In this document: one piece after another, positions 1 to 6,392 of the stretch
Layout of the letters: each line of letters opens with the position of its first letter
Numbering within the stretch: the first letter of the stretch is position 1
Virus record (IMG/VR): IMGVR_UViG_2541047790_000003
Length of the DNA stretch: 10,589 bases
Direction: 5' to 3' (one strand)
Source of the DNA: a virus
Lineage: Duplodnaviria; Heunggongvirae; Uroviricota; Caudoviricetes
Notes under the pieces: model-generated
Database searches by the model: none
Seen by the model: only the letters and a program-made list of their open reading frames with translations
What the model was told of the DNA's origin: nothing
Translations under genes and position numbers: made by a program

Positions 1-189
1 TGGATGTTCGCGGGTTCCGACAGCGGTGGTGAACATGCGGCGGTGTTGTACTCGCTGATCGGCACATGCCGTCTGAACAATGTGGAGCCAGAAAAGTGGC
101 TGCGTTACGTCATTGAACATATCCAGGACTGGCCGGCAAACCGGGTACGCGATCTGTTGCCCTGGAAAGTTGATCTGAGCTCTCAGTAA
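1..189 (+). CDS. IS66-family transposase, C-terminal fragment (5' end lies outside the window)
   Basis: Frame is open from base 1 to TAA at 187-189. Translation ...FAGSDSGGEHAAVLYSLIGTCRLNNVEPEKWLRYVIEHIQDWPANRVRDLLPW resembles the conserved C-terminal region of IS66-family transposases (from memory). Confidence 0.7.
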   Translation, partial: WMFAGSDSGGEHAAVLYSLIGTCRLNNVEPEKWLRYVIEHIQDWPANRVRDLLPWKVDLSSQ

Positions 190-219
190 ATATCAATACG
201 GTTCTGACGAGTCGCTTAC
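1..219 (+). mobile_element. Right end of an IS66-family insertion sequence (partial; boundary approximate)
   Basis: About 30 bp after the transposase stop the sequence reads ...GAGTCGCTTAC (ending at 219); its reverse complement GTAAGCG... is the usual start of IS66-family terminal inverted repeats. Lambda-like sequence follows immediately. Confidence 0.5.
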
Positions 220-423: not shown

Positions 424-499
424 ATAATTACCTCGTTGGATGTTGTTAAAATTCCATTTGTATTTGATCAGAACGCTCGGTTGCCGCCGGGCGTTTTTT
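423..499 (+). ncRNA. oop: oop-like antisense RNA (3' end defined by terminator; 5' end approximate)
   Basis: Intrinsic terminator on the plus strand inside the cII 3' end (stem 474-493 with G-U wobbles, T-run 494-499), as for lambda OOP RNA, which is antisense to the cII 3' end. A perfect TATAAT sits at 423-428 upstream. Length and start are not determinable from sequence alone. Confidence 0.4.
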
Positions 500-739
500 A
501 TTGGTGAGAATCGAAGCAACTTGTCGTGCCAATCGAGCCATGTCGTCGTCGACGACACCCCATTCAAGAACAGCAAGCAGCATTGAGAACTTTGGAATCC
601 AGTCCCTCTTCCACCTGCTGATCTGCGACTTATCAACTCCCACAGCTTCCGCTGTCTTCTCAGTTCCAAGCATTGCGATTTTGTTAAGCAACGCACTCTC
701 GATTCGTAGAGCCTCGTTGCGTTTGTTTGCACGAACCAT
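446..739 (-). CDS. cII: Transcriptional activator CII
   Basis: 97-aa translation MVRANKRNEALRIESALLNKIAMLGTEKTAEAVGVDKSQISRWKRDWIPKFSMLLAVLEWGVVDDDMARLARQVASILTNKKRPAATERSDQIQMEF is near-identical to lambda CII as I recall it. True start is ATG at 739-737 with an AGGAAA RBS; the ORF-track start at 799 is an upstream in-frame extension. Confidence 0.95.
   Translation of the reverse strand: MVRANKRNEALRIESALLNKIAMLGTEKTAEAVGVDKSQISRWKRDWIPKFSMLLAVLEWGVVDDDMARLARQVASILTNKKRPAATERSDQIQMEF
474..499 (+). terminator. Rho-independent terminator (oop terminator equivalent)
   Basis: CGCTCGGTTGCCGCCGGGCG forms an ~8-bp stem with a 4-nt loop, followed by TTTTTT at 494-499. Confidence 0.6.
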
Positions 740-760
740 ATGTAAGTATTTCCTTAGATA
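717..760 (+). promoter_or_regulatory. pRE-like CII-activated promoter (TTGC-N6-TTGC CII binding site)
   Basis: TTGC at 717-720 and 727-730 with 6-bp spacing, antisense within the cII 5' end, exactly as at lambda pRE; weak -10 (AAGTAT-like) around 743-748, directed toward cI. Confidence 0.6.
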
Positions 761-818
761 ACAATTGATTGAATGTATGCAAATAAATGCATACACCATA
801 GGTGTGGTTTAATTTGAT

Positions 819-857: not shown

Positions 858-1067
<210 letters not shown>

Positions 1068-1075
1068 TTAGTACA

Positions 1076-1153
1076 TGCAACTATTATCACCGCTAGAGGT
1101 AAAATAGTCAACACGCACGGTGTTAGATATTTATCCCTTGCGGTGATAGATTT
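1076..1153. promoter_or_regulatory. Right operator OR1-OR2-OR3 with divergent promoters pR (minus) and pRM (plus)
   Basis: 17-bp operators on the plus strand: OR1 TATCACCGCTAGAGGTA (1085-1101), OR2 CAACACGCACGGTGTTA (1109-1125), OR3 TATCCCTTGCGGTGATA (1132-1148). pR -35 TTGACT and -10 GATAAT lie on the minus strand (1111-1106 and 1088-1083). pRM -35 TAGATA (1125-1130) and -10 TAGATT (1148-1153) precede the cI ATG at 1159. Confidence 0.9.
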
Positions 1154-1155
1154 AA

Positions 1156-1872
<717 letters not shown>

Positions 1873-1901
1873 CCACAATACAACCTTGTTGTCGCAAAAA
1901 G

Positions 1902-1949
1902 ATCGCATATGCGATTGTTTATTAGAAATAGAAATCGCCATATAGGCGA
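1902..1949. repeat. Two related palindromes in the cI-to-cargo-gene intergenic region
   Basis: Perfect 14-bp palindrome ATCGCATATGCGAT (1902-1915) and TCGCC-ATATA-GGCGA (1935-1949); both have a TCGC...GCGA core with an AT-rich centre, about 33 bp apart centre to centre. Confidence 0.5.
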
Positions 1950-1990
1950 ATAGTCGATCTCAGTGCATAACATAAGGAAATCAATAACAT

Positions 1991-2896
1991 ATGCCAAATT
2001 TACCGATGGGCGGATCGCAGGGTGAATTACCCTTAGTACCTACAGTAGAAGTTGTTGCTGATGGCATTCCTATGGGGGTGCTTAATGATGGAACCCCTTA
2101 TCTAACTCTTTACGGTTTAGCCAAATTATGTGGCATAGATGAAGCACCTCTTCGAATGTTTACATCTAACTGGGAGACTGAAAAAAATAAGCCAAGAGGA
2201 CAAAAAGTAGCTGCATACTTAGCTGAGAAAGGATTTAACAACGTTGACCGACTGTATACCCGCGTCATAAATAGCTCAAACGTTGAAACACATGCTTATC
2301 CTGACTATGTTTGTATGGCTATCCTCCGTTACTACGCTCTAGATGCCACCAATTTTGATAGGTCAGTCGCAATAGGTAATTTTGTTCGCTTGGCTGAGTA
2401 CACGCTTAAGCGAATGATTTATGAAAAGTCAAATTACAACCCAAATGCTTCAATAGATATCTCATTCGAGAACTATAGAGCAAGGATTAAGCTAAACGAT
2501 CAGATACCGACAACTCATTTTGCAGTATTCAGAGAGATAGCTGACATTGCCATGAACCTGATCGGAGGAGGATTCCCAATGGATGACACCACATCTTTGG
2601 ATGGAAGTGTTGGAATTCACTGGGGAAAGTATTGGACAGCTAATGGGCTATCTGAGAAATTCGGGGAAAGGGTGCAGTACCCACATCTATTCCCCGAAAA
2701 TTACAGGCAGTCAGCTGCAAATAAGCATATAAAAGCTTGGATTTATCCTATTGAGGCACTTGGCGTGTTCAGAAAATGGCTACACGATAATTACGCAATG
2801 GAAAAACTGCCAAATTACCTTGGGAACAAAAAGATTAGTAATGCCTCCGAGCTATTAGAGTTGATAAAAAAACCAGCACTCCCAAATAAGCATTGA
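1991..2896 (+). CDS. Hypothetical 301-aa protein in the rexAB slot; candidate exclusion/defence gene with a possible KilA-N/Bro-N-like N-terminal domain
   Basis: ATG at 1991 with AAGGA 12 nt upstream; 301 codons ending TGA at 2894-2896; protein-like composition; coding sequence is AT-richer by eye than cI and N. No similarity to RexA noticed. The N-terminal segment ...VPTVEVVADGIPMGVLNDGTPYLTLYGLAKLCGIDE... is reminiscent of KilA-N/Bro-N domains; this is unverified. Confidence 0.8.
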   Translation: MPNLPMGGSQGELPLVPTVEVVADGIPMGVLNDGTPYLTLYGLAKLCGIDEAPLRMFTSNWETEKNKPRGQKVAAYLAEKGFNNVDRLYTRVINSSNVETHAYPDYVCMAILRYYALDATNFDRSVAIGNFVRLAEYTLKRMIYEKSNYNPNASIDISFENYRARIKLNDQIPTTHFAVFREIADIAMNLIGGGFPMDDTTSLDGSVGIHWGKYWTANGLSEKFGERVQYPHLFPENYRQSAANKHIKAWIYPIEALGVFRKWLHDNYAMEKLPNYLGNKKISNASELLELIKKPALPNKH

Positions 2897-2907
2897 TCTC
2901 CACCACA

Positions 2908-2934
2908 ACCCGGCATCTGCGCCGGGTTTTCTTT
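2908..2934 (+). terminator. Rho-independent terminator downstream of the 301-aa gene (tImm equivalent)
   Basis: Stem ACCCGGC (2908-2914) pairs with GCCGGGT (2921-2927) around loop ATCTGC, followed by a T-rich run TTTTCTTT. Confidence 0.75.
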
Positions 2935-3084
2935 GCCTAACGCCCCCAAAAAACACATAACCAATTGTATTTATTTTAAAATTAATAGATACAACTCGCT
3001 AAACATCGCAATTCATATCTCTCGATCACCTTCCCAATCCACACAACCCTGCAAAAAATAAATCTATATAAAAAACATACAGAT

Positions 3085-3155
3085 AACCATCTGCGGTGAT
3101 AAATTATCTCTGGCGGTGTTGACATGAATACCACTGGCGGTGATACTAAGCACAT
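3085..3155 (+). promoter_or_regulatory. Left operator OL3-OL2-OL1 with promoter pL
   Basis: OL3 AACCATCTGCGGTGATA (3085-3101), OL2 TATCTCTGGCGGTGTTG (3105-3121), OL1 TACCACTGGCGGTGATA (3129-3145); -35 TTGACA (3119-3124) and -10 GATACT (3142-3147). Matches lambda pL/OL with a few substitutions. Confidence 0.9.
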
Positions 3156-3187
3156 CAGCAGGACGCACTGACCACCATGAAGGTGAT

Positions 3188-3217
3188 GCTCTTAAAAATT
3201 AAGCCCTGAAGAAGGGC
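3188..3217 (+). promoter_or_regulatory. nutL N-utilisation site (boxA and boxB)
   Basis: boxA GCTCTTAAAAATT (3188-3200) and boxB hairpin GCCCTGAAGAAGGGC (3203-3217) in the pL leader. Confidence 0.8.
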
Positions 3218-3374
3218 AGCATTCAAAGCAGAAAGCTTTGGTGTGTGTGATACGAAACGAAGCATTGGCCGGAAGTGCGAATCCGGATTAGCTGCCAATG
3301 TGCCATTGCGGGGTGTTTTCGTTCAGGAATACGACTCCCACACACAACCAAAGCTAACTGACAGGAGAATCCTG

Positions 3375-3701
3375 ATGGATGCACAAACACGCCGCCGCGA
3401 ACGTCGCGCAGAGAAACAGGCTCAATGGAAAACAGCAAACCCCCTGTTGGTTGGGGTAAGCGCAAAACCAGTTAACCGCCCTATTCTCTCGCTGAATCGC
3501 AAACCGAAATCACGAGTAGAAAGCGTACTGAATCCGATAGACCTTACAGTGCTGGCTGAATACCACGAACAGATTGAAAGCAACCTGCAGCGTATTGAGC
3601 GCAAGAATCAGCGCACATGGTACAGCAAGCCACGCAGTGAAATGGGTGTGACTTGTGTTGGTCGCCAGAAAATGAAATTAGGCAGCAAACCACTTATTTG
3701 A
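3375..3701 (+). CDS. N: Antitermination protein N
   Basis: ATG at 3375 with AGGAGA RBS. Translation MDAQTRRRERRAEKQAQWKTANPLLVGVSAKPVNRPILSLNRKPKSRVESVLNPIDLTVLAEYHEQIESNLQRIERKNQRTWYSKP... includes the arginine-rich boxB-binding N-terminus; about 90% like lambda N from memory, with a divergent C-terminus. The ORF-track start at 3243 is an upstream extension. Confidence 0.95.
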   Translation: MDAQTRRRERRAEKQAQWKTANPLLVGVSAKPVNRPILSLNRKPKSRVESVLNPIDLTVLAEYHEQIESNLQRIERKNQRTWYSKPRSEMGVTCVGRQKMKLGSKPLI

Positions 3702-3712
3702 GAGGAATTAAT

Positions 3713-4336
3713 ATGTCATCAATCCGCTTAACTACGAGAATGAAAGAGGAAATCGCTCGTAACGCTTTAATTAAGTCTGGGGTTTTCACTGAACTTGAAG
3801 AAGTAACAAAGTTAAAGAACCAGCTTGCACTTGACGCCAGAGTTATTGCGTTTGGCGGGAAAAAGAAAACTGAGGAAGTTGATCAGTTATCATCCAAGTT
3901 GGTAGCTATAAGTGAAGAACTTGAAAAGATGGGATGTTCATTTTACTCATACGATGTTCGTTCTACTTCAATTTATCTGACTGCATCTGGCAGAAGGATT
4001 GGATGGCATTCATATGGGAAAGACGGCAACGGCGAAGATATATTGCTCCCTACTCCGAACAAAGATAAATGCATGTTTAGCGCAGAACACGAAATAACAA
4101 AAAGGTTTGATGAAATCTGCGCATTGCAACAAAAACTTGAAGCCAAGAAAAAGGATATCGAATCAAATGTATGGGCTGCTTTGAACTCAGTCACAACAGT
4201 TAAGCGACTTATTGAGGTTTGGCCTGAAAGCAAAGAATTGCTACCAAAAGAAGCAGATAAAGCAAGTACAGCACTTCCTGCTTTACGGGTAGAAGATTTG
4301 AATAAGATGATTGGACTTCCTTCCGAGGCCGCATAG
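3713..4336 (+). CDS. Hypothetical 207-aa protein (cargo gene immediately after N)
   Basis: ATG at 3713 with GAGGAA 6 nt upstream, 11 nt after the N stop; 207 codons of protein-like composition (MSSIRLTTRMKEEIARNALIKSGVFTELEEV...); low GC by eye. No family recognised. Confidence 0.8.
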   Translation: MSSIRLTTRMKEEIARNALIKSGVFTELEEVTKLKNQLALDARVIAFGGKKKTEEVDQLSSKLVAISEELEKMGCSFYSYDVRSTSIYLTASGRRIGWHSYGKDGNGEDILLPTPNKDKCMFSAEHEITKRFDEICALQQKLEAKKKDIESNVWAALNSVTTVKRLIEVWPESKELLPKEADKASTALPALRVEDLNKMIGLPSEAA

Positions 4337-5423: not shown

Positions 5424-6392
5424 ATGAGTGAAGTAACAGATTTAGTTGTTATTGAAAAATCAAATGCAATGACTGTATTTCAGTCTGCCGACCAGATTGA
5501 AGAAATCCTTCAAAAGGTTGAACGTGAAGTTATGTCCTTTGTTCCTGATATCACAACGGCAAAGGGCAGGAAGGAGATCGCTTCTCTGGCGTATAAAGTT
5601 GCGCAGACGAAAACATATCTCGATGGTCTTGGCAAAGACCTTGTTGCTGAACTGAAGGAAATTCCAAAGCTAATTGATGCCAACCGCAAGACAGTGCGTG
5701 ATCGCCTTGATGAGCTGAAAGCCAAGGCACGCCAGCCTCTTACTGATTATGAGGAAGAACAGGCGCGGATTAAAGCCGAAGAAGAAGCTAAGGCAGCAGC
5801 TGAAGCTCTCGCAAAGCAAATTGAGTCTGACCATGAAATAGCTATTTTGATGGATCGCGAATTTGACCGCCAAAGAGAAGAGGCAAGACTCAAAGCGGAG
5901 CAGGAAAAGCGAGAGCATGAAGAACGCTTAAAAAGAGAAGCTGAAGAGAAAGCCAGAGCAGAAGCCGAAGCAAAGGCAAAAGCCGAAATTGAAGCAGCAG
6001 CAAGGCGAGAAGCAGAAGCTAAGGCCGCTGCGGAACGAGCAGAGCGTGAACGCATTGAAGCCGAGCAACGAGCACAGCGCGAAGCAAAAGAGGCAGCAGA
6101 ACGAGCTGAAAGAGAAAAGCAGGCAGCAATTGAAGCAGAACGCAGAAAAGCACAGGAGGAGGCTGAACAAATCCGTCGCGATGCTGAAGCAAAAGAGCAA
6201 GCCAGAATAGCAGAAGAAAAAAGAATCAAGGACGAAGAAGAGCGTAGAGCAAAGGATAAAGCTCACCGGAAAGAAGTTAATAACAAAATACTTGCTGACC
6301 TTATCAAGGTTGGCGCATCAGAAGATGTTGCTAAAAATATCATAACAGCCATCGTAAAAGGCGAAGTATTCGCAACAAAAATAACCTACTAA
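5424..6392 (+). CDS. Hypothetical 322-aa protein with a long E/A/K/R-rich central helix
   Basis: ATG at 5424 with AAGGAGGA RBS. Globular-looking N-terminus (about 110 aa), then about 180 residues made almost entirely of E, A, K, R and Q (EAEAKAKAEIEAAARREAEAKAAAERAERERIEAEQRAQREAKEAAERAEREKQ...), then a short C-terminal domain. Confidence 0.85.
   Translation: MSEVTDLVVIEKSNAMTVFQSADQIEEILQKVEREVMSFVPDITTAKGRKEIASLAYKVAQTKTYLDGLGKDLVAELKEIPKLIDANRKTVRDRLDELKAKARQPLTDYEEEQARIKAEEEAKAAAEALAKQIESDHEIAILMDREFDRQREEARLKAEQEKREHEERLKREAEEKARAEAEAKAKAEIEAAARREAEAKAAAERAERERIEAEQRAQREAKEAAERAEREKQAAIEAERRKAQEEAEQIRRDAEAKEQARIAEEKRIKDEEERRAKDKAHRKEVNNKILADLIKVGASEDVAKNIITAIVKGEVFATKITY

What the first reader, a model, noticed from the sequence alone, without database searches (positions are those of the whole stretch)
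1873..2934. Single 301-aa cargo gene occupies the rexAB slot between cI and OL: candidate prophage defence gene
In lambda the interval between cI and OL carries rexA-rexB, an abortive-infection system co-transcribed with cI in the lysogen. Here that interval holds one ORF (1991-2896) on the cI strand, with its own RBS and a strong terminator (2908-2934) directly before OL3. It looks AT-richer than cI and N and shows no resemblance to RexA that I can see. This is the classic position of lysogen-expressed exclusion genes. Its N-terminal ~100 residues look to me like a KilA-N/Bro-N-type domain, the architecture reported for BstA-family abortive-infection proteins found downstream of repressor genes, but that is unverified. 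The C-terminal two thirds match nothing I recognise, so it could be a diverged or undescribed family.
Basis: partly seen in the sequence, partly recalled or inferred. Interest (0 to 1): 0.8.

Follow-up and report, generated by a model that had tools for sequence, protein, structure and literature searches.

The report
BstA phage-defence gene replacing rexAB

Summary
One 301-aa ORF (1991-2896) lies on the cI strand, exactly replacing lambda's rexA-rexB cassette. Lambda homology stops at the cI stop codon (1868) and resumes at the Timm terminator (2907).

The protein is BstA over its full length: PADLOC BstA E=2.9e-106, PHROG 6287 E=4.9e-135, and 43% identity to experimentally characterised BstA of Salmonella phage BTP1. 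The C-terminal two thirds are the family's own domain (PF26567), not something undescribed. BstA, its position after the repressor and the rexAB parallel were published by Owen et al. 2021.

This allele is a natural chimera. The spacer plus codons 1-108 match an O111-type allele. Codons 111-301 match the CL707/NCTC10963-type allele, which was shown experimentally to defend against phages.

BstA loci carry a cognate self-immunity DNA element (aba). Here the candidate is 1955-2022: GATCTCAG and GATCGCAG, 57 bp apart, bracketing the RBS and ATG, in register with BTP1's CCCGCC repeats.

Across 120 non-redundant bstA loci, direct repeats spaced 56-57 bp at this position are strongly enriched. The searchable literature does not report this.

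Verdict: a new member of a known kind, of modest interest.

The parts
1085..1148 (.). OR1-OR2-OR3 operators with the pRM/pR region of a lambda-immunity prophage, the presumed promoter source for cI-bstA transcription
   Evidence: Lambda operator sequences found at 1085-1101 (1 mismatch), 1109-1125 and 1132-1148. A sigma-70-like pR hit is at 1111-1083.
1159..1872 (+). cI repressor (lambda cI with T3A)
   Evidence: Pfam HTH_3 plus Peptidase_S24. 99.4% nucleotide identity to lambda. One amino-acid difference.
1873..1990 (+). 118-bp cI-bstA spacer. It is not homologous to lambda or to the CL707-type spacer and is identical to the O111-type spacer apart from 4 bases. It contains palindromes at 1901-1916 and 1935-1949.
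   Evidence: identity to CL707 0.23, to O111 1.00 upstream of copy 1. Palindromes. No sigma-70-like promoter on the + strand in the spacer.
1955..2022 (.). Candidate aba (anti-BstA) self-immunity DNA element. Direct-repeat copy 1 is GATCTCAGTG (1956-1965) and copy 2 is GATCGCAGGG (2013-2022), 57 bp apart, bracketing the RBS and start codon.
   Evidence: 8/10 match at spacing 57 at offset -131 from the D33 codon; only 1 of 66 control spacings reaches 8/10. In register with BTP1 CCCGCCA, CL707 (G/A)ATCCCT and O111 GATCGC. The architecture is enriched family-wide. Function is inferred from the BTP1 experiments.
1901..1907 (+). Third, exact copy of GATCGCA, 55 bp upstream of copy 1 and inside the 1901-1916 palindrome. 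Its relevance is unknown.
   Evidence: D3: 1901 and 2013. There is no family-wide peak at spacing 111-115, so it may be chance or allele-specific.
1974..1979 (+). Shine-Dalgarno AAGGAA of bstA
   Evidence: Sequence. TAAGGAAATCA is conserved in CL707 and O111, and AAGGAAAATCA in BTP1.
1991..2896 (+). bstA coding sequence (301 aa, stop included)
   Evidence: PADLOC BstA 2.9e-106 with profile 4-272 of 292. PHROG 6287 'BstA abortive infection system, replication inhibitor' 4.9e-135 with profile 3-304 of 304. 43% identity to BstA-BTP1. All 34 family-invariant residues are present.
1991..2314 (+). 5' module (codons 1-108: disordered tail plus most of the N-terminal DNA-binding-like domain), O111-type
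   Evidence: 100% identical to L004 from 1973 to 2320 and 72-84% to CL707. In the model residues 1-9 have pLDDT below 50, and the folded alpha/beta domain runs from about residue 17 to 146.
2315..2320 (+). Recombination crossover interval between the two parental allele types
   Evidence: The last difference to the CL707 type is at 2314 and the first difference to the O111 type is at 2321.
2321..2896 (+). 3' module (codons 111-301: end of the N-domain plus the whole BstA C-terminal domain), CL707/NCTC10963 (BstA-Ec) type
   Evidence: 99-100% nucleotide identity to L001/L005 and 74-79% to the O111 type. Only K248T and L291S differ from CL707.
2907..2934 (+). Rho-independent terminator, homologue of lambda Timm, ending the cI-bstA transcription unit
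   Evidence: 8-bp stem, 6 G-C pairs, T-rich tail. Lambda homology resumes at 2907. Annotated as Timm in CL707.
3085..3145 (.). OL3-OL2-OL1 operators and pL
   Evidence: Exact lambda operator sequences. pL-like TTGACA-17-GATACT at 3119-3147.

Best explanation
Window 1869-2906 is a BstA-aba cassette occupying the rexAB slot of a lambda-immunity prophage in E. coli.

Shown here: the 301-aa protein is a full-length BstA family member. It sits directly after cI and ends at the Timm terminator. It is a recombinant: its spacer, candidate aba and first 108 codons come from one natural allele (O111-type), and its remaining 191 codons come from the experimentally validated BstA-Ec type.

Inferred from the published work on BstA-BTP1, BstA-Ec and BstA-Kp: the gene is transcribed in the lysogen together with cI. 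The protein is harmless until a sensitive phage enters lytic replication. It then gathers at the replicating phage DNA and blocks phage DNA replication, so the infected cell dies without releasing progeny (abortive infection).

Also inferred: when the resident prophage itself is induced, its own multiplying copies of the aba DNA neutralise BstA, so the prophage is spared. The candidate aba here is 1955-2022, two GATC[T/G]CAG repeats 57 bp apart around the start codon. The most economical reading of the conserved repeat pair is that it forms two binding sites for the N-terminal DNA-binding-like domain. Direct binding has not been shown for any BstA.
For: Family membership: PADLOC BstA E=2.9e-106; PHROG 6287 E=4.9e-135 full length; 43% identity over 299 aligned residues to BstA-BTP1; PF26567 on 112 of 113 homologues and all invariant residues kept; RefSeq name.

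Synteny: the order cI, bstA, terminator, OL, N is the same as in BTP1 and CL707. The lambda breakpoints are exactly at the cI stop and Timm.

Link to experiment: the bstA-Ec cloning primer NW_761 matches CL707/O178-type loci exactly and does not match the window. The window's codons 111-301 differ from CL707 at 2 residues. Owen et al. showed that BstA-Ec confers phage resistance and that each bstA locus carries a cognate aba.

aba: the repeats are in register with BTP1's functionally required CCCGCC repeats. In 120 non-redundant loci, exact repeats of at least 6 nt number 26 and 39 at spacings 56 and 57, against about 5 (maximum 12) at every other spacing from 20 to 110. At least 8/10 matches occur in 60 of 120 loci against a control mean of 4.3, and at least 9/10 in 34 against 0.4. 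There are 53 distinct repeat words.

Selection: the allele is 100% conserved in at least 16 complete E. coli genomes, and amino-acid identity exceeds nucleotide identity between alleles.
Against: No experiment exists for this allele, so function rests on homology. The two repeat copies here match only 8/10, with an exact run of 4 (GATC) then 3 (CAG). In BTP1 a single G-to-T change in either repeat abolished aba, and the window's copy 1 differs from the O111 allele by just such a G-to-T (1960). aba could therefore be weakened, although imperfect pairs are common in close relatives. No promoter-like site was found in the spacer, and two hairpins lie between cI and bstA, so co-transcription with cI is presumed rather than shown. 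Repeats with the same spacing also occur in bstA loci that follow IS1595 transposases rather than repressors. This shows that the repeats are not exclusively a prophage self-immunity device. The source strain has an IS insertion next to cII, so this particular prophage may be unable to replicate.
Confidence: 0.85

Rival explanations
1. The protein is a KilA-N/Bro-N-type antirepressor or transcription regulator of the prophage rather than a defence protein. It would bind DNA or a repressor to modulate the lysis-lysogeny switch.
For: Weak fold matches are dominated by antirepressor, 'repressor domain', KilA and Bro-N proteins and by small DNA-binding domains. Sub-threshold Pfam hits to CII/Cro-type HTH families appear in some members. 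The gene lies in the immunity region.
Confidence: 0.04
2. The main selected role is in host virulence or fitness (the 'st313-td' reading of the Salmonella homologue) rather than phage defence.
For: The BTP1 homologue is still annotated st313-td in one record. Owen et al. cite phenotypic reports linking it to virulence and anti-virulence. The allele is common in O25:H4 clinical isolates.
Against: No mechanism was ever proposed. The family is spread through prophages of many non-pathogens and environmental bacteria. The defence phenotype was shown directly for three homologues.
Confidence: 0.03
3. The gene is an intact-looking but functionally decaying cargo. The chimeric N/C junction or the mismatched aba repeats make the system inactive or self-toxic, in a prophage already crippled by an IS insertion.
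For: The crossover lies inside the N-domain (codon about 109). Copy 1 carries a G-to-T relative to the O111 allele. There is an IS junction at 219/220. An IS1 lies in or near bstA in one other strain (H43).
Against: The two parents differ at only two residues between codons 109 and 150, so the junction is nearly silent. The ORF is intact and identical in many genomes whose prophage lacks the IS. All invariant residues are kept. Imperfect repeat pairs are usual in this clade.
Confidence: 0.06
4. This rival concerns the repeats only. The 56-57-bp-spaced repeats are primarily an autoregulatory operator or translation-control site of bstA, and self-immunity by multicopy titration is a by-product.
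For: The repeats bracket the RBS and ATG. They are just as clear in IS1595-linked, apparently non-prophage loci, with at least 8 of the 9 verified loci positive. The aba effect needs high copy number in trans.
Against: In BTP1 the element is sufficient for immunity when moved to P22 or pUC18 and acts as DNA rather than transcript. No expression data bear on autoregulation. The two roles are not mutually exclusive.
Confidence: 0.3

Closest known systems
BstA-Ec (E. coli NCTC10963, the allele type also in phage CL707 and E. coli O178:H19 2012C-4431; Owen et al. 2021, PMC8585504)
   Same: Same host species, same lambda cI upstream (WP_001274755.1), same Timm/OL/N downstream, and same length (301 aa). 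Codons 111-301 are 99-100% identical with 2 amino-acid changes. The Shine-Dalgarno region is the same, and repeats sit at the same offsets.
   Different: The spacer is not homologous (23% ungapped identity). The candidate aba segment is only 57% identical. Codons 1-108 are 72-84% identical, with 24 amino-acid changes of which 16 fall in the first 25 residues. The repeat word is GATC[T/G]CAG instead of [G/A]ATCCCT. Whether the two aba elements cross-protect is unknown.
BstA-BTP1 with its 63-bp aba (Salmonella phage BTP1)
   Same: Same two-domain protein family, 43% identical over 97% of the length. Same position after cI. Direct repeats lie in the same register relative to the conserved LNDGTPYL motif, 56 against 57 bp apart.
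   Different: Different repeat word (CCCGCC). BTP1 has an extra small gene between bstA and OL. The repressor and immunity type differ. Only BTP1's aba has been mapped experimentally.
Lambda RexA-RexB
   Same: Same genomic slot between cI and Timm, presumed co-transcription with cI in the lysogen, and abortive-infection outcome.
   Different: No sequence similarity. Two proteins with a membrane-depolarisation mechanism, against one soluble DNA-associated protein plus a DNA immunity element.
KilA-N / Bro-N / APSES DNA-binding domains (phage antirepressors, Mbp1)
   Same: Similar small alpha/beta DNA-binding-like fold suggested for residues about 17-146. Owen et al. found a KilA-N(-like) match by HHpred. 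Weak fold matches were found here.
   Different: No Pfam KilA-N or Bro-N match in 50 members. Structural scores are marginal. The BstA C-terminal domain has no counterpart in those proteins.

Membership tests
BstA abortive-infection family | Full-length similarity to the BstA profile or proteins | tested here: met
   PADLOC BstA 2.9e-106, residues 8-283 on profile 4-272 of 292. PHROG 6287 4.9e-135, residues 5-301 on 3-304 of 304. 43% identity to BstA-BTP1.
BstA abortive-infection family | [quoted passage not shown] | tested here: met
   The AlphaFold model (pLDDT 84, pTM 0.51) shows an alpha/beta N-domain at about 17-146, a low-confidence linker at 147-156, and a mostly helical C-domain at 157-292. 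PF26567 is recorded for the cluster representative identical to this protein (P0001).
BstA abortive-infection family | Location immediately downstream of, and on the same strand as, the prophage repressor | tested here: met
   cI 1159-1872 then bstA 1991-2896. BTP1 and CL707 are arranged the same way. 32 of 106 upstream genes family-wide carry Peptidase_S24.
BstA abortive-infection family | Cognate aba DNA element spanning the start codon and bounded by direct repeats | tested here: inconclusive
   A repeat pair lies at the expected register (1956 and 2013, 57 bp) but matches only 8/10. The architecture is strongly enriched family-wide. Function of this sequence cannot be tested in silico.
BstA abortive-infection family | Confers population-level phage resistance by abortive infection and blocks phage DNA replication | not testable with these tools
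   Shown for BstA-BTP1, BstA-Ec and BstA-Kp by Owen et al.. This allele has not been tested.
BstA abortive-infection family | Expression in the lysogen | not testable with these tools
   No internal promoter or strong terminator lies between cI and bstA, and Timm follows at the end. This is consistent with a cI-bstA operon, but no transcript data are available.
KilA-N (PF04383) / Bro-N (PF02498) domain families | Match to the family HMM | tested here: not met
   No hit at E<=1 for this protein or for any of the 50 family members.
KilA-N (PF04383) / Bro-N (PF02498) domain families | Shared fold with solved or predicted KilA-N/APSES/Bro-N domains | tested here: inconclusive
RexAB exclusion system | Homology to RexA or RexB | tested here: not met
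   BLASTP best E 0.071 and 3.2 in single-pair comparisons. Lambda DNA homology is absent across 1869-2906.

The most novel reading that the evidence does not exclude
The pair of short direct repeats 56-57 bp apart that bounds BTP1's aba would be a family-wide, rapidly diversifying feature of bstA loci. It has at least 53 different repeat words and also occurs in loci that follow IS1595 transposases rather than repressors. On this reading it is the recognition site of BstA's own N-terminal domain. The window's allele joins an O111-type aba and N-module to a BstA-Ec-type C-domain. It would then be a ready-made natural domain swap showing that aba specificity travels with the first 108 codons and is independent of the effector domain. 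This would also explain why the disordered N-terminal tail of BstA proteins is hypervariable: its codons double as the right half of aba.
Probability: 0.45. Interest if true: 0.55.

Novelty: new member of a known kind. Interest (0 to 1): 0.3.

Why it matters
For annotation, the ORF should simply be called bstA, a prophage abortive-infection gene, with a candidate aba at 1955-2022. It is not a new defence family. The allele is carried by a prophage common in the O25:H4 clinical isolates among the matching genomes, so it may affect how those strains respond to therapeutic or environmental phages.

The wider points are modest but testable. The mechanism of BstA and of aba is still open (Owen et al. 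discussion). The family-wide repeat spacing, together with this natural N-module/C-module chimera, gives a concrete way to ask which part of the protein reads aba.

Tried and rejected
- The local Pfam and NCBIfam scans of the protein gave nothing. The local Pfam copy evidently lacks PF26567, which is recorded in the precomputed annotations.
- A profile search of PDB sequences gave only a chance hit, and Foldseek against the PDB gave nothing significant. The C-terminal domain therefore has no recognisable solved relative, and I could not propose a catalytic activity for it.
- I looked for a promoter in the spacer and found none at the scan's threshold.
- RNA folding of 1869-2030 was not better than shuffles (z -1.5), and Rfam found no family in the window. 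An RNA-element reading of the spacer was dropped.
- A third repeat copy at 1901 suggested a three-copy array, but there is no family-wide peak at spacing 111-115.
- A within-locus versus between-locus test of repeat words without a spacing constraint was only weakly discriminating: P(>=9/10) 0.38 against 0.12.
- I tried to identify the tested BstA-Kp locus from primers. Only the reverse primer matched (L132) and the forward primer matched nothing, so the Kp comparison is indicative only.
- NCTC10963 itself is a draft assembly outside the collections. Its allele type was inferred from the cloning primer, not from its sequence.
- My automated start-codon calls for distant loci were unreliable. 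The repeat analysis was therefore anchored on the conserved LNDGTPYL motif instead.
- Splitting loci into repeat-positive and repeat-negative at 8/10 misclassifies BTP1 itself, so I did not compare upstream genes between the two classes.

Full report
**What is in the window**

The window is the immunity and early-left region of a lambda-type prophage, read with cI on the + strand:
- cII 446-799 (-) and cro 858-1058 (-)
- OR1-3 at 1085-1148
- cI 1159-1872 (+)
- the ORF in question, 1991-2896 (+)
- a terminator at 2907-2934
- OL3-OL1 at 3085-3145 and nutL boxB near 3202
- N at 3375-3701, followed by early-left genes

cI differs from lambda cI at one residue, and all three OL operators are lambda-identical. 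From position 220 onward the window is 99.99% identical to a prophage in E. coli SK0189 that runs from the lysis genes to an integrase.

**Check of the observation**

BLAST against lambda shows homology for 901-1868 and 2907-3676 and nothing in between. So 1869-2906 replaces the 1.4-kb rexA-rexB cassette exactly, from the cI stop codon to the first base of the Timm hairpin.
- The ORF, its AAGGAA ribosome-binding site and the terminator are all as described.
- The gene is mildly AT-richer (41.3% GC) than cI (45.5%) and N (49.5%).
- It has no similarity to RexA or RexB.
- The only factual slip is that OL3 begins 150 bp after the terminator, not directly after it.

**What the gene is**

The protein is a full-length member of the BstA family.
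- PADLOC's BstA model scores 2.9e-106 across residues 8-283.
- PHROG 6287, 'BstA abortive infection system, replication inhibitor', scores 4.9e-135 across residues 5-301.
- It aligns with BstA of Salmonella phage BTP1 at 43% identity over 299 aligned residues.
- 112 of the 113 homologues found carry PF26567.
- Recent RefSeq records name the identical protein WP_001576830.1 'BstA C-terminal domain-containing protein'.
- All 34 family-invariant residues are present.

The C-terminal two thirds are therefore the family's own domain, not something undescribed. BTP1 and phage CL707 have the same gene order of repressor, bstA, terminator, OL and N.

BstA was characterised by Owen et al. 2021 (PMC8585504). 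Their findings:
- It is expressed in the lysogen.
- It co-localises with replicating DNA of an infecting phage and blocks phage DNA replication.
- It gives population-level protection by abortive infection.
- Their discussion already draws the parallel with rexAB in the cI-N mosaic hotspot.

**Relation to the tested E. coli protein**

Owen et al. tested BstA-Ec from E. coli NCTC10963. That assembly is not in the collections available here. Its cloning primer NW_761 matches the CL707/O178:H19-type loci exactly and has no match in this window even with 3 mismatches.

A column-by-column comparison of three E. coli allele classes shows that the window's gene is a recombinant.
- From 1869 to 2314 (spacer plus codons 1-108) it is identical to an O111-type allele except at 1960, 1962, 1964 and 1972. 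That allele sits behind a different repressor.
- From 2321 to the terminator it is 99-100% identical to the CL707/BstA-Ec type, with two amino-acid differences (K248T, L291S).
- The crossover lies in 2315-2320.
- Against the CL707-type allele the protein differs at 26 positions. 24 of these are in the first 93 residues and 16 in the first 25.
- The chimeric allele is found at >=99% identity in 23 of 5,426 complete E. coli genomes, several labelled O25:H4. The other two classes are in 10 genomes each.

**The self-immunity element**

A BstA system has a second part, the aba element. In BTP1 it is a 63-bp DNA segment from -29 to +34 of the start codon. It is bounded by CCCGCC direct repeats that are each essential, it acts as DNA and it is specific to its own BstA. 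Only BTP1's aba has been mapped.

I registered the alleles on the conserved LNDGTPYL motif, using the D33 codon as anchor (window 2087). The repeats then fall at the same offsets in all of them:

| Allele | Copy 1 | Copy 2 | Offsets from anchor |
|---|---|---|---|
| BTP1 | CCCGCCA | CCCGCCA | -130 and -74 |
| CL707 | GATCCCTA | AATCCCTG | -131 and -74 |
| O111-type | GATCGC | GATCGC | same positions |
| This window | GATCTCAGTG (1956) | GATCGCAGGG (2013) | -131 and -74 |

The window's pair is 57 bp apart and matches at 8 of 10 positions. Only 1 of 66 control spacings in this window reaches 8/10. The four differences from the O111 allele in the whole 5' module all lie on or next to copy 1. Between this allele and CL707, the segment from copy 1 to copy 2 is the most diverged part of the homologous region: 57% identical, against 72-84% in the following codons.

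**Family-wide test**

I collected 160 further bstA loci from genomes and viral contigs and reduced them to 120 non-redundant 5' regions.
- Exact direct repeats of at least 6 nt number 26 at spacing 56 and 39 at spacing 57. Every other spacing from 20 to 110 gives about 5, with a maximum of 12.
- The first copies cluster at -152 to -126 from the anchor.
- At least 8/10 matches at spacing 56 or 57 occur in 60 of 120 loci, against a control mean of 4.3 (maximum 13).
- At least 9/10 matches occur in 34 loci against 0.4, and 10/10 in 8 against 0.
- The 8/10 criterion is conservative, since BTP1 itself fails it.
- There are 53 distinct repeat words, with loose shared themes such as GGTCACCA, GAGCACCA, GGAAATCACC and GATC[C/G]C.
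- In the enterobacterial loci copy 1 lies about 35 bp before the ATG and copy 2 about 22 bp after it. Copy 2 therefore falls in codons for the N-terminal tail, which is disordered in the model.

I found no report of this generalisation in the searchable literature. I derived the hypothesis from three alleles and then tested it on the rest.

**Structure**

An AlphaFold model built on 50 homologues has mean pLDDT 84 and pTM 0.51.
- The tail (residues 1-9) is disordered.
- An alpha/beta N-domain spans about 17-146.
- A weak linker follows, then a mostly helical C-domain at 157-292.

This agrees with the two-domain picture of Owen et al.. The KilA-N assignment rests on their HHpred result, and here the support is weak.
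- There is no Pfam KilA-N or Bro-N hit in any of 50 members. A few sub-threshold Cro/CII-type HTH hits appear.
- Foldseek against the PDB found nothing.
- Weak BFVD hits are enriched for antirepressor, KilA, KilA-N and Bro-N proteins.

The C-domain has no recognisable relative, so its biochemical activity remains unknown.

**How it most likely works**

Shown here: family membership, synteny, mosaic origin, and a repeat pair in the expected register.

Inferred from the BTP1, Ec and Kp experiments:
- The gene is expressed in the lysogen, probably as a cI-bstA transcript from pRM ending at Timm. No promoter-like site and no strong terminator lies between the genes.
- It mediates abortive infection by blocking replication of incoming phage DNA.
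- It is neutralised by the prophage's own aba DNA once that DNA multiplies after induction.

My own inference is that the two repeats are binding sites for the N-terminal domain, and that specificity therefore travels with the 5' module.

Two caveats:
- The repeats are just as clear in loci where bstA follows an IS1595-family transposase instead of a repressor. They may therefore primarily be BstA's own operator.
- The imperfect copy 1 in this window could weaken aba, although imperfect pairs are common in close relatives.

**Verdict**

However, the family, its location and the rexAB analogy are published, and standard defence-annotation tools would name the gene. It is a new, untested member of a known kind, a natural hybrid of two alleles.

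Interest is modest at 0.3. The most novel reading still open is the family-wide aba architecture together with the natural domain swap. I give it a probability of about 0.45 and an interest of about 0.55 if true.

Noticed in passing
window 1-219 (ORF 4-189 +): The first 219 bases are absent from the otherwise 99.99% identical reference prophage, and no complete E. coli genome has this junction. The 61-aa ORF looks like the C-terminal end of an IS66-family transposase (my recollection, not tested). An IS element has apparently inserted into the small gene just downstream of cII, which may cripple rightward early transcription of this prophage copy.
   Followed up: partly
L048, L055, L056, L057, L060, L062, L064, L081, L047 (about 1900-2900 in each locus): In about 10% of non-redundant bstA loci, mostly alphaproteobacterial, the gene immediately upstream on the same strand is an IS1595-family transposase (DDE_Tnp_IS1595 plus zinc ribbon) rather than a repressor. 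[quoted passage not shown] These loci carry the most perfect 57-bp-spaced repeats. bstA may be a passenger gene of such elements. The text of Owen et al. does not mention this.
   Followed up: partly
window 1901-1916 and 1935-1949: Two related palindromes lie in the cI-bstA spacer: GATCGCATATGCGATT, and TCGCCATATAGGCGA on the + strand. They are 100% conserved in the O111-type allele and absent from the CL707-type spacer. The first contains a third exact copy of GATCGCA, 55 bp upstream of repeat copy 1. Both score as weak terminator-like hairpins. Their role is unknown.
   Followed up: partly
window 1901, 1956, 2013: GATC (the Dam methylation site, from my own knowledge) is under-represented in the window, with 26 sites against about 41 expected. 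Yet three sites fall within 116 bp, one in each GATC[G/T]CA copy. In the close enterobacterial clade, most repeat copies contain GATC or a one-base variant. BTP1's repeats do not, so any link to methylation state would be clade-specific.
   Followed up: no
window 1845-1872; L004 2473-2500: Homology to the O111-type cassette begins inside the last ~28 bases of the repressor gene, although that prophage has a different repressor. The ...QWPEETFG* end is shared by lambda, CL707 and O111-type repressors and resembles the BTP1 repressor end. It looks like a conserved junction for module exchange.
   Followed up: partly
NZ_CP046259.1 (hit H43): In E. coli strain ECO2947 the same bstA region is split into two pieces by an IS1A element, a possible natural knockout of this allele.
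   Followed up: no
window 3713-4336: The gene directly after N encodes an Nmad5 (nucleotide modification associated domain 5) protein (Pfam 9.4e-72). The same gene follows N in the O178:H19 prophage. No PADLOC hit.
   Followed up: no
window 1085-1101: OR1 differs from lambda OR1 at one base (TATCACCGCTAGAGGTA against ...GCCAGAGGTA). OR2, OR3 and all OL operators are identical to lambda. cI carries T3A.
   Followed up: no
window 5424-6392: A 322-aa ORF with a long, extremely E/A/K/R-rich coiled-coil segment. It produces the strong AT-skew peak at about 5850-6300 and is annotated only as a 'coiled-coil domain-containing protein' in RefSeq.
   Followed up: no
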